This document shows, piece after piece, positions 46,801 through 49,800 of a stretch of 64,000 nt of DNA. Position 1 is the stretch's first letter. The number at the start of each line of letters is the position of its first letter. Position numbers: made by a program. Location of the stretch: NCBI RefSeq assembly GCF_056712565.1, contig NZ_CM160072.1; one strand, 5' to 3'.

Positions 46801-49800
46801 CATAATGACTTTCATGTACATTGCTTTATGTACACACCCATATTCGATATTCAGGTATTCGCAATGCCAAAACTCACAGATATGCAGATCCGCGCATGGA
46901 TAAAGGCGGGAGACAGATTTGATGGCAAGGCAGACGGCAACGGCCTTTATATTTGCTACCCCAAAAACTACACAGTCCCGTTCTGGCGATTCCGATATAA
47001 GCTCGCAGGAAAACAGCGGGCTATGGTTATCGGCTCTTACTCCGAACTGTCACTATCAAAAGCCAGAGAAATAGCAAAAGAGCTGTCAGCCAGAGTTGCT
47101 CTTGGCTATGACGTAGCAGCAGAAAAACAGGAACGAAAAGCTGAAGCACTGGCAAAAATGGAGGCTGAGAAAAACGCCATGCGCGTTTCAGATCTGGCCG
47201 CCGAATACTTCGAGCGACAGATACTTCCGAGATGGAAACATCCCGATATCCTTCGCCGGAGAATTGATAAGGATATTAACCCCTGCATTGGGCATATGAA
47301 GGTAGAGGACGTTAAGCCACGCCACATTGACGACATGTTGAAAGGTATCGTTGACCGAGGAGCACCAACGATAGCAACAGATGTATTACGCTGGACACGC
47401 CGTATCTTTGACTATGGGATAAAACGCCACGCTCTGGAGATAAACCCTTGTTCAGCGTTTGAAGTATCTGATGCTGGTGGTAAAGAGGTTTCCCGCGACC
47501 GTTGGCTAACTCGCGATGAGCTTATCAGGCTATTCGAGGCTATGCGCACCGCAAAAGGATTCAGCCGCCAGAACGAACTGACATTTAAGCTATTGCTGGC
47601 ACTATGCGTTCGTAAGATGGAGTTATGCGCCGCACGATGGGAAGAGTTTGATTTAGATGGTGCGGTATGGCATTTGCCGGAAGAACGCAGCAAAAACGGA
47701 GACCCTATTGATATACCTCTACCTTCTCCTGCCGTTGAATGGTTGAGAGAGCTACACACCTTTTCATGTAATAGCGCATGGGTGCTTCCAGCCAGGAAGA
47801 TGCAAAACAGAATGATCCCACATATTCAGGAAAGCACTTTACCCGTAGCACTGGCTAAGGTTCGCGCCGAAATGCCGGATGTGCCTAATTTCACGATTCA
47901 CGACTTCCGGCGTACCGCACGTACTCATTTAGCAGCATTGGGTGTTGATCCTGTCGTAGCGGAACGATGCCTCAATCATCGCATTAAGGGTGTGGAGGGG
48001 ATTTATAACCGCCATCAGTATTTTGATGAGCGTAAAGCTGCGCTGGCACAGTGGGCTGATCTGCTGGTGGCACTGGAAAGCGGGAAAGACTACAACGTAA
48101 CGCCATTCGATAAAGCCCGGAGGCAAATGTGAACAACATCTTGAGAAAATCGCCAATCGAACGGCTTTGTTCATCTGTATCGATTACCCCTCATGAAATG
48201 GCTGTGGCCTTGGCTGGCCTAAACCCATCTATGCGCATTAGCGATGTGCCTGAGGAAAATTTCGAATATGTCGATTTTGTCAGAACTCATCTTGCCAGAG
48301 CTATCAAGGTGTACAGAGGTGAAAAAACTAGTAAAGACGAGCCTTGCCATGCCCTTGATATTTTCTTAGCTTCTTACCCATTTATTGACACAAATACACC
48401 AGAAATAATTGTTCAGAAAATATCAGAAGCGATTGATGATTTGCGTGGCACCAAGGGCTGGGAAGAAAAAGCCCGAAACCTTGGAGGACTCCAGTTAGTA
48501 AACTACATCAAAGAAACCAACCGCAGCGGACGTGGGCAGCATAGAAAGCAGGATGAGGAAAACGGGACAATGAAAATGATGGGGTTGATAGTACATCTGC
48601 TGATAAAAAAATCAGGCTCATCTTCCTACATCCAAAATGGGAAACCTAATCGCACAGCTATATACCGTGACATAGAAACCTTAATCAAGGATGAAGGGAT
48701 ATCCCATAAAGGAATAGCAAAAGCCACATTCCTAGAAAAAATCTCACGGGCTTTATTAGCTGTCCACGATCTCGACTAATCACTTTTCACGCCCCTCCAA
48801 AGCAATGGCGGGGCATTACCTGTTTACCCATCTCCACCAGCATAGATAATTCTATGCCTAGCCATTGCTATATCTGTTCGGCTTAGTTCATCTGTAATCA
48901 CCCCATCTCTAAAAGATACGCCAGCTATCATTAGCCATTTTAAGCCATCATGAGCCATTATAAACCGACTCAACCAATTGAATAATAAAAGATAAAAGGA
49001 AATGTAAAAACATGATGAATGACGATGAAAGATATAACTCTTTGATAAAACAATGATTTTTTAAACTGGTAACTAATTGAAAATAAAGAAAATAATTATC
49101 CCACCTGCATTTGCAATCTTTCAGTGGATCGGTATTTTTTCAATAGATTTATAATTTCTTTCAATAGATTCTAGTCTTAATAGAAATACTGTATGGGCAA
49201 CCACTAAACTTTAAGTAACTTCATGAGCTATCAGAGAGGTTACTAGAGATATGACAGCACACAAGCCAGCATCATCAGCTATCCCAACAACTGGATACAT
49301 CCGTCGCTTTCGCATGCCGGAATTGCTAGGTGTTTCACTGCCTACTATTGATAGATGGGTTAAAAATGGCACTCTTCCACGCCCAGTGAAGCTAACAGAT
49401 AACGTGACTGCGTTTGATGCGGTGGAAATTAATAACTGGCTGGCAGAACGCCGAAACACATCAGCCTGATTAAATGACTACGGGGGATGACGTTCAACCC
49501 CACCAGCAAACAAAAGTAACTTAATTTAATAGCAGGTGTTTTTATGAAACTGCGAAAAACGCCCGTACAGGGGCAGGGCTTCGTTCGGCCTGAAACCAGC
49601 ATGAGCGATATTCTGGTTCGCCACAAAGCGGAGTCGCGCATTGATTCCCGCTTATTTGCTGAGCGTATTGGCATAAAGCACAAAAACCTTTATTCGCTCA
49701 TTCAGAAGCACAAAACCGGATTGCGTGAACTGGGCATCCTTCCGTTTCAAACGGAGCGATTAAAAACCCGTCAAAACGGGGAGCGTGAACATAAGTTTGC

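What the first reader, a model, noticed from the sequence alone, without database searches (positions are those of the whole stretch)
48129..48779. Unknown 216-aa ORF translationally coupled to the integrase
A GTG start overlaps the int stop (GTGA), the gene is AT-rich relative to int, and it is followed by a ~470-bp AT-rich non-coding spacer. The position immediately after an integrase is where variable cargo is often carried in integrative elements, and I recognise no family.
Basis: partly seen in the sequence, partly recalled or inferred. Interest (0 to 1): 0.5.

Follow-up and report, generated by a model that had tools for sequence, protein, structure and literature searches.

The report
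Integrase-coupled regulator gene of phage satellites
The 216-codon gene is real, and it belongs to an uncharacterised family found in phage satellites of enterobacteria that always sits on the end of the integrase gene and always comes with the same four-repeat DNA array in front of the satellite's master switch gene alpA, so it is most likely a DNA-binding regulator of that switch rather than passenger cargo.

Summary
ORF 48129-48779 starts at a GTG that overlaps the int stop (GTGA). It has a GGAGG five bases upstream, 42.5% GC against 49.3% for int, and a 471-bp spacer of 34% GC before alpA. It is under purifying selection.

It lies in a ~20-kb PICI-like satellite inserted at the 3' end of yicC in E. 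coli. It has no Pfam, NCBIfam, PADLOC or PDB fold match; its only match is phrog_30524, of unknown function.

Comparison of about 130 related loci gave three results:
- The int-to-alpA slot nearly always holds one gene, but from at least 27 unrelated families. A 99%-identical integrase can carry a different gene there.
- The ORF216 family is the largest of these (18 of 53 loci). It is always fused or abutted to the int stop (-4, -1, +1, +2 nt).
- The family co-occurs almost one-to-one, tested in both directions, with four TTTCAATGGAAT repeats at start spacings of 19, 21 and 16 bp. In the window these lie at 49119-49186. The array tracks ORF216, not Int or AlpA.

My best reading (about 0.5) is a sequence-specific regulator of the alpA promoter, made together with Int. 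The closest known gene is iolg of Vibrio PICMI satellites, which overlaps int and is essential for excision by an unknown mechanism. DNA binding and the sign of regulation are untested.

The parts
46655..46675 (+). attL core, CAGATCCAGAATATCGAATAA, which is the 3' end of yicC. An imperfect second copy (attR) lies about 20 kb to the right, outside the window (L001 38082-38102).
   Evidence: Sequence comparison of the two island ends; yicC and dinD flank the island.
46783..46835 (+). Repeated TGTACA(T/C) motifs between attL and int, taken as arm-type integrase sites. The same GTGTACATAAGGGTGTACATAAT motif occurs near attR.
   Evidence: The assignment as arm sites is inference.
46864..48132 (+). 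Tyrosine integrase, 422 aa, with Arm-DNA-bind_3, Phage_int_M and Phage_integrase domains in its homologues.
48119..48123 (+). GGAGG ribosome-binding site for ORF216, inside the 3' end of int.
   Evidence: Sequence.
48129..48779 (+). ORF216, a member of the int-fused family (phrog_30524). The predicted structure is all-alpha with two domains (1-131 and 137-216) joined by the conserved basic loop SGRGxHRKxDE. The GTG start overlaps the int stop.
48780..49118 (.). Non-conserved AT-rich part of the spacer. In other elements this is where an IS element or an Abi/Mrr cassette is inserted.
49119..49186 (+). Four direct repeats, consensus TTTCAATGGAAT: R1 49119-49130, R2 49138-49149, R3 49159-49170, R4 49175-49186. 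Start spacings are 19, 21 and 16 bp. Proposed operator of ORF216.
   Evidence: This is the only such cluster in the 64-kb window; 0 of 2000 shuffles reached four hits.
49205..49210 (+). TAAACT, a candidate -10 hexamer of the alpA promoter. A TAnnnT is conserved at 18-19 nt after R4 in most family loci, and there is no -35 match.
   Evidence: Anchored alignment. The promoter assignment is inference; no transcription start data.
49214..49244 (+). alpA leader hairpin (AGTAAC ... GTTACT) that pairs the alpA Shine-Dalgarno sequence. Its loop carries TCATGAGCTATCA, which also occurs in the attL arm at 46743-46755.
   Evidence: -16.1 kcal/mol, z = -3.6.
49251..49469 (+). alpA, 72 aa, an AlpA/excisionase-type helix-turn-helix protein and master activator of Gram-negative PICIs.
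   Evidence: role taken from PMC6092414.

Best explanation
ORF216 is a core regulatory gene of the satellite's integration module, not cargo. It is translated from the int mRNA by stop/start coupling, so it is made whenever Int is made, including in the integrated, latent state.

I propose that its basic C-terminal part (the conserved loop SGRGxHRKxDE plus the helices ending in a G-x-x-K-S-T-F-Y-x-K-like motif) binds the four TTTCAATGGAAT repeats. These repeats cover the -35 region and the ~60 bp upstream of the alpA promoter. By binding there it would decide whether alpA is transcribed; alpA encodes the excisionase and master activator.

The acidic, more variable N-terminal domain would be the part that receives the signal, for example a helper-phage protein.

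I lean towards a positive or licensing role, for two reasons. The promoter has no -35 element and R4 sits where a class-II activator would sit. In Vibrio PICMI115, deleting the positional counterpart iolg abolishes excision. A repressor role like that of Stl is not excluded.

Shown here: the gene is real; its coupling to int is conserved; the association between the family and the array is almost one-to-one; and the pair is independent of Int and AlpA lineage.

Inferred: DNA binding by ORF216, the promoter assignment, the sign of regulation and the sensing of a helper.
For: 1. Forward test. 18 of 18 int-clade loci with an ORF216 homologue have 2-5 same-strand matches to the repeat matrix just upstream of alpA, and 15 have three or more. 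None of 42 loci with another slot gene has two or more.

2. Geometry. The layout R1-7-R2-9-R3-4-R4 is the same in about 20 distinct loci. These include elements whose Int and AlpA are only 26-30% identical: the cf-PICI vB_KppS-Ant, and L010, L021-L023 and L033.

3. Reverse test. Searching IMG/VR with the R3-R4 pattern gave 68 hits. Of 24 evaluable arrays, 22 have an ORF216 homologue upstream; the other 2 are spurious AT-rich DNA. Of 41 single matches, 40 have no homologue.

4. The array follows ORF216, not AlpA or Int. AlpA proteins 79-85% identical occur both with and without the array (L018 against L038, L057 against L043). Int identity is uncorrelated with ORF216 identity (rho = 0.13).

5. 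There are no array copies near attL or attR. The array keeps a near-constant distance to the alpA start, followed by a conserved TAnnnT.

6. Coupling to int is conserved. Start offsets are -4, -1, +1 and +2 in 18 of 18 int-clade loci, and -4 to +8 in all other family loci but one (L008, where the start is unclear at 80-98 nt).

7. The best-conserved segment is residues 132-162 (48% mean identity). The C-terminal part has net charge +5 and the N-terminal part -3.

8. Precedents. iolg overlaps int and is essential for excision in PICMI115 (PMC10803314). A luxR-family regulator next to alpA is essential for excision of PIME1. How helper phages switch on alpA is stated to be unknown (PMC6092414; PMC10803314).
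Against: - ORF216 and the array are physically adjacent, so co-inheritance as one recombination cassette could produce the association without direct binding.
- The repeat matrix was built from nine family loci, so counts in those loci are partly circular. Nine int-clade loci, six more distant loci and the reverse test are independent.
- In EcCICFT073, which has no slot gene, a plasmid alpA reporter is induced by a helper phage in a strain without the island. A satellite-encoded factor is therefore not universally needed.
- L012, the most distant homologue, shows only one repeat match.
- The -10 assignment has no transcription start data behind it.
Confidence: 0.5

Rival explanations
1. ORF216 is an excision cofactor in the strict sense. 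Like the model proposed for PICMI Iolg, it would join Int and AlpA in the excisive intasome through protein-protein contacts or DNA bending at the att arms. The repeat array would belong to something else.
For: Translational coupling to int implies production in step with Int. PICMI115 delta-iolg cannot excise, and the authors propose an Int/Iolg/AlpA excision complex.
Against: Int and ORF216 identities are uncorrelated, and a 99%-identical Int works with unrelated slot genes, so a specific Int interface is unlikely. The family's repeat motif is absent from both att arms. This model does not explain why the array is co-inherited with ORF216.
Confidence: 0.15
2. ORF216 is a sensor or adaptor that does not bind DNA itself. 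The array would be bound by AlpA, a host factor or a helper-phage activator, and ORF216 would modulate that factor.
For: No DNA-binding fold was detected. AlpA is known to activate its own promoter, and helper phages induce alpA.
Against: The array does not follow AlpA lineage. A helper-factor site would not be expected to track one satellite gene family one-to-one across PICI, cf-PICI and P4-like elements.
Confidence: 0.13
3. ORF216 is accessory cargo expressed in the latent state, for example an anti-phage or superinfection-exclusion protein occupying the known 5' accessory region of PICIs.
For: The slot is hypervariable between near-identical islands. The gene is AT-rich relative to int. 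PICIs are reported to carry immune systems at their 5' and 3' ends (PMC11364771).
Against: There is no PADLOC match. The slot nearly always holds one gene, with a near-constant int-to-alpA distance of about 0.9-1.2 kb. The family keeps its fusion to int and its array over very deep divergence. Recognisable defence genes and an IS element insert next to it rather than replacing it.
Confidence: 0.12
4. ORF216 is an iteron-binding replication or partition protein, and the AT-rich spacer with its repeats is an origin or centromere.
For: Four direct repeats at roughly two-turn spacing inside AT-rich DNA resemble plasmid iterons.
Against: The island has its own DUF927 primase-helicase, and the literature places PICI origins downstream of pri. 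The array is locked to the alpA start and a promoter-like element. The predicted all-alpha fold matches no Rep protein.
Confidence: 0.05

Closest known systems
iolg (integrase-overlapping gene) of PICMI satellites, Vibrio chagasii PICMI115 (Barcia-Cruz et al. 2024, PMC10803314)
   Same: The gene start overlaps the int stop by 4 nt (ATGA there; GTGA or ATGA here). It lies between int and alpA in a satellite with int, alpA and a primase. It has no known domain. Within PICMIs the slot also holds many unrelated families (13 iolg/icg families), and overlaps of 1 or 4 nt are seen in both systems.
   Different: Homology could not be tested because no PICMI sequence was available here. The host and helper differ (Vibrio and virulent phages against Enterobacterales). 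The essential role in excision is shown only for PICMI115. No cognate repeat array has been reported for iolg. The published model is an excision complex, whereas my evidence points to the alpA promoter.
Stl/Rpr master repressors of Gram-positive PICIs (SaPIs)
   Same: An element-encoded, highly diversified regulator next to int that couples the satellite's switch to a helper phage (as summarised in PMC6092414). The slot proteins show comparable diversity.
   Different: Stl is transcribed divergently from the genes it controls and is a proven repressor. ORF216 is co-directional with int and fused to it, has no detectable similarity, and its sign of action is unknown. Gram-negative PICIs are described as lacking a known repressor.
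LuxR-family regulator in the alpA regulatory region of PIME1 integrative mobilizable elements (bioRxiv 10.64898/2026.01.12.698999)
   Same: A second element-encoded regulator beside alpA whose deletion, like deletion of int or alpA, abolishes excision and circularisation.
   Different: It belongs to a different protein family, is oriented divergently, and its helper is a conjugative plasmid rather than a phage.
AlpA / Vis / Xis recombination directionality factors
   Same: Small proteins of the integration module that bind DNA and control excision.
   Different: ORF216 is three times larger and all-alpha, and it has no HTH_17, Phage_AlpA or excisionase match. Its repeat motif is absent from the att arms. 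A bona fide alpA lies 471 bp downstream.
5' accessory (immune) region of E. coli PICIs
   Same: Same position, between int and the regulator, and variable content.
   Different: There is no defence-model match. The gene behaves as a conserved module with a regulatory array, and real cargo inserts beside it.

Membership tests
phrog_30524 (PHROGs, unknown function) | Full-length match to the family profile | tested here: met
   E = 3e-34; residues 11-209 against profile positions 14-213 of 220.
iolg-type gene (PICMI definition) | Start codon overlaps the integrase stop by 1, 4 or 13 nt | tested here: met
   GTGA overlap in the window. Offsets of -4 or -1 in 11 of the 18 int-clade family loci (12 of 18 counting the GTGA-sharing start in L047); +1 or +2 in the rest.
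iolg-type gene (PICMI definition) | Located between int and alpA of a satellite that also encodes a primase | tested here: met
iolg-type gene (PICMI definition) | Required for helper-induced excision | not testable with these tools
   Needs a non-polar deletion and an attP/attB qPCR assay.
iolg-type gene (PICMI definition) | Sequence or structural homology to one of the 13 PICMI iolg/icg families | not tested
The exhaustive search found only 28 clusters at 50% identity, and the family members found in AFDB are from Enterobacterales or Gilliamella.
Sequence-specific transcription factor | Recognisable DNA-binding domain | tested here: not met
Sequence-specific transcription factor | Cognate repeated DNA sites at a promoter, co-inherited with the protein | tested here: met
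   forward test 18 of 18 against 0 of 42; reverse test 22 of 24 evaluable arrays.
Sequence-specific transcription factor | Direct binding to those sites | not testable with these tools
   Needs EMSA, footprinting or ChIP.
Anti-phage defence system | Match to a known or candidate defence protein model | tested here: not met
   PADLOC gave 0 families at E <= 0.1.
Excisionase / RDF (Xis, AlpA, Vis) | HTH_17, Phage_AlpA or excisionase domain | tested here: not met
Excisionase / RDF (Xis, AlpA, Vis) | Binding sites in the att arms | tested here: not met
   No matches to the repeat matrix near attL or attR. This holds only if the array really is the protein's site.
Iteron-type replication initiator | Rep-like fold, and an origin next to the replication genes | tested here: not met
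   The all-alpha model has no Rep match. The array lies upstream of alpA, about 4 kb from the primase gene.

The most novel reading that the evidence does not exclude
The genes in the int-to-alpA slot of Gram-negative satellites, with ORF216 as the largest family, may be the missing link between helper-phage infection and alpA induction. They would be a hypervariable set of integrase-coupled regulators, each with its own operator at the alpA promoter, sensing different helper cues. That would make them functional counterparts of the Stl repressors of Gram-positive PICIs, built on a fold with no known relatives.
Probability: 0.25. Interest if true: 0.8.

Novelty: new variant of a known kind. 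Interest (0 to 1): 0.6.

Why it matters
Both the PICI and the PICMI papers state that it is unknown how a helper phage switches on alpA in Gram-negative satellites, and what the integrase-overlapping gene does.

This analysis turns those open questions into a specific, testable pairing. On one side is a protein family present in about 4% of complete E. coli genomes (202 of 5426), including O157:H7, and in PICI, cf-PICI and P4-like satellites. On the other is a fixed 68-bp operator-like array.

If the pairing is functional, it would:
- give a handle for controlling satellite induction, which matters for PICI-based delivery tools;
- explain why the slot next to int is always filled yet hypervariable;
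- add a DNA-binding fold with no known relatives.

Tried and rejected
Searches for a known domain or fold found nothing:
- Pfam, on the single sequence and on each of the 26 aligned family sequences.
- NCBIfam and PADLOC.
- PDB by sequence and by profile.
- Rfam on 46600-49600 gave only a sub-threshold CRISPR-repeat hit, which I treat as noise.

Homology between ORF216 and the other slot proteins was not supported:
- By eye they seem to share a C-terminal helix pattern (basic stretch, LLxxLIxLL, then I-S/T-x-x-T-I-x-x-x-L).
- hhalign gave P >= 0.07 for every group, so I do not claim it.
- A word-indexed search with the C-terminal domain of the 321-aa protein gave only 3 hits and was of no use.

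Int and ORF216 do not co-evolve, so that idea is rejected (rho = 0.13).

I first suspected the motif TCATGAGCTATCA was the ORF216 site. It occurs in the attL arm and in the alpA leader. It follows the alpA and att modules rather than ORF216, so I now treat it as a candidate AlpA site.

My first alignment was too diverse for the search for related loci, so I used a subset.

I did not run a fused Int-ORF216 structure prediction, because the tool returns no interface metrics.

The yicC island of O157:H7 is not EcCIEDL933. By its published description EcCIEDL933 is the cf-PICI prototype and encodes capsid genes, which the yicC island lacks.

Full report
**Where the window comes from.** The region is 100% identical to E. 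coli chromosomes such as ExPEC XM. A mobile island of about 20 kb lies between yicC and dinD. Its genes, in order, are int, ORF216, alpA, Rha/AntA/AntB/BRO-N proteins, YlcI, an Icd-like protein, DUF4222, a DUF927 primase-helicase, SSB, ProQ/FinO, PerC and three large unknown ORFs. This is the layout of a Gram-negative phage-inducible chromosomal island (PICI): an integration zone, a Bro zone, a replication zone and a late or accessory zone (PMC10111431). The island is inserted at the 3' end of yicC. The core CAGATCCAGAATATCGAATAA (46655-46675) recurs imperfectly at the right end, and TGTACAT repeats flank both ends as probable arm-type sites.

**The observation.**
- The ORF runs 48129-48779 and encodes 216 aa.
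- Its GTG start overlaps the int stop (GTGA), and a GGAGG lies 5 nt upstream.
- GC content is 42.5% for the ORF, 49.3% for int and 34.2% for the 471-bp spacer.
- It is a real gene. Against the 69%-identical allele in O157:H7, O111 and O145 strains, pN is 0.18 and pS is 0.77.
- Homologues start at the same codon, with conserved N-terminal residues.

**What the protein looks like.** No Pfam, NCBIfam, PADLOC or PDB sequence match was found. The only hit is phrog_30524, of unknown function.
- An exhaustive search of 1.84 billion representative proteins found 28 clusters, all about 206-240 aa when full length.
- The family members found in AFDB are all from Enterobacterales or Gilliamella and are all uncharacterised.
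- AlphaFold2 on a 26-sequence alignment gives a confident all-alpha model (pLDDT 89.8). It has two domains (1-131 and 137-216) joined by a lower-confidence loop.
- That loop carries the family's best-conserved motif, SGRGxHRKxDE.
- The C-terminal part is basic (net charge +5) and the N-terminal part acidic (-3).

**Context of the family.** In every locus examined, the homologue directly follows a tyrosine integrase and precedes alpA.
- The elements are of several kinds: PICI-like islands, a capsid-forming PICI deposited as 'Escherichia phage vB_KppS-Ant', and P4-like elements carrying Ogr/Delta or a P2-type capsid gene.
- The junction with int is ATGA or GTGA, TAATG, or a gap of 1-8 nt in all but one locus.

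**Is it variable cargo?** I scanned one genome per species with an integrase alignment and obtained 80 further loci.
- Among 53 loci with a clean int-slot-alpA arrangement, the int-to-alpA distance is typically about 0.9-1.2 kb and the slot nearly always holds one gene.
- The slot genes fall into at least 27 BLAST families.
- ORF216 is the largest family, at 18 of 53 loci, all in Enterobacterales.
- In E. coli, 553 of 5426 genomes carry this integrase clade and 202 carry ORF216.
- About 200 genomes have an integrase gene ~98% identical in DNA (99% in protein for the copy examined), but homology stops 28 bp before the stop codon. An unrelated 321-aa or 307-aa gene follows.
- Int identity and ORF216 identity are uncorrelated (rho = 0.13).

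There are two architectures.
- The ORF216 family is fused to int and is followed by a long AT-rich spacer of 240-590 bp.
- The other slot genes start about 90-108 nt after int and end about 60-170 nt before alpA.

**The key finding.** When the 150 nt upstream of alpA are lined up, every ORF216 locus shows three to five direct repeats of TTTCAATGGAAT or TTTCAATAGATT. No other locus does. I tested this in several ways.
- Forward test. A weight matrix gives 2-5 same-strand hits in 18 of 18 family loci (three or more in 15). It gives two or more hits in 0 of 42 non-family loci.
- Geometry. The layout is fixed: R1, 7 nt, R2, 9 nt, R3, 4 nt, R4, with start spacings of 19, 21 and 16 bp. It is identical in elements whose Int and AlpA share under 30% identity with the window's.
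- In the window. The array lies at 49119-49186 and is the only such cluster in 64 kb. None of 2000 shuffles of the spacer reached four hits.
- Not AlpA. AlpA phylogeny interleaves loci with and without the array; for example AlpA is 85% identical between L018 (array) and L038 (no array).
- Reverse test. I searched 2.9 million viral contigs for the R3-R4 pattern. Of 24 evaluable arrays, 22 have an ORF216 homologue upstream, one of them separated from the array by an IS256-like insertion. The other two are spurious AT-rich matches. Of 41 isolated pattern hits, 40 have no homologue.
- Not at the att sites. No array copy lies near attL or attR.
- Promoter-like context. A conserved TAnnnT sits 18-19 nt after R4 (TAAACT at 49205-49210), and there is no -35 match. 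R4 would therefore overlap the -35 position. This promoter assignment is inference.

**Interpretation.** A protein family and a DNA array stay together while both flanking genes, int and alpA, are reshuffled, and while the protein diverges to 28% identity. The simplest account is a cognate protein-operator pair.

I therefore propose that ORF216 is a sequence-specific regulator of the alpA promoter, made in step with Int. AlpA is the master activator and excisionase of these satellites, and how helpers induce it is unknown (PMC6092414; PMC10803314).

The closest known gene is iolg of Vibrio PICMI satellites.
- It overlaps int by ATGA, lies between int and alpA, and is essential for excision.
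- It belongs to one of 13 unrelated slot families.
- A regulator needed for alpA expression would give exactly that phenotype.
- In PIME1 elements, a luxR-family regulator beside alpA is likewise essential for excision.

I lean towards a positive or licensing role, but a repressor role like that of Stl fits the architecture too.

**Limits.**
- DNA binding is not shown, and no DNA-binding domain is detectable.
- Physical adjacency could explain co-inheritance.
- The weight matrix was seeded from nine family loci.
- The transcription start is unmapped.
- Homology to PICMI iolg could not be tested.
- Apparent C-terminal similarity between ORF216 and other slot proteins was not supported by hhalign.

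**Verdict.** The 'cargo' reading is partly right about the slot and probably wrong about this gene. The gene is a new variant of the recently described integrase-overlapping gene type, now with a specific, testable mechanism.

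Noticed in passing
window 46743-46755 and 49221-49233 (weaker copies at 48948 and 49272); L013, L014, L024 and L032 alpA leaders: The attL-side arm contains TCATGAGCTATCATAACGACGCAACAA. The first half recurs exactly in the loop of the window's alpA leader hairpin. The second half (TAACGA[A/C]GCAACAA) recurs in the alpA leaders of islands that have a different slot gene but use the same integration site. These are candidate AlpA sites, which would fit a dual role as excisionase and autoregulator.
   Followed up: partly
window 49214-49244: A hairpin in the alpA leader pairs the alpA Shine-Dalgarno sequence (-16.1 kcal/mol, z = -3.6). Islands with other slot genes have a stronger equivalent (CCCGTAAC ... 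GTTACGGG), which suggests translational control of alpA.
   Followed up: partly
window 57470-60001 and 60001-62061, continuing beyond the window (L001 33362-36118): Three large co-directional ORFs (843, 686 and 918 aa) sit at the far end of the island, the usual place for satellite cargo. None matches a PADLOC model.
   Followed up: partly
L013 10261-10355, L014 8261-8375 and related loci: Islands with non-ORF216 slot genes share a conserved ~95-nt leader between int and the slot gene, with an inverted repeat (TTGAGCC ... GGCTCAA). Eleven of these slot proteins are linked by local BLAST similarity into a mosaic group, several of which share an N-terminal motif resembling an AlpA/MerR-type helix-turn-helix (PPLEYxSLDRAAxLLxCExxDLxHW), with variable remainders.
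   Followed up: partly
L012 1963-4895; L136 933-2141: DNA is inserted between the ORF216 homologue and alpA in two elements: an Abi_alpha (PADLOC PDC-S47) plus Mrr-type nuclease cassette in one, and an IS256-like transposase in the other. The AT-rich spacer, not the ORF, is where extra DNA lands.
   Followed up: partly
loci L028-L107: The int-to-alpA distance is typically about 0.9-1.2 kb across this integrase clade, from Enterobacterales to Chromobacterium, Rhodocyclales and Methylococcales. This suggests a one-gene slot is an ancient, conserved feature of these elements.
   Followed up: partly
window 50235-50978: The C-terminal part of the AntA/AntB-type protein matches the candidate defence model PDC-S22 in PADLOC (E = 4e-10).
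   Followed up: no
L029, L037, L027, L093, L062, L054 (slot end to alpA): Several non-ORF216 slot families have their own different repeats upstream of alpA. Examples are GGAATATTCCA twice, GAAAGTGAAGACCTACTTT twice, CGGCTATAGCC three times and GTACACC four times. Others have only a terminator there. This hints that the protein-plus-operator logic may be general.
   Followed up: no
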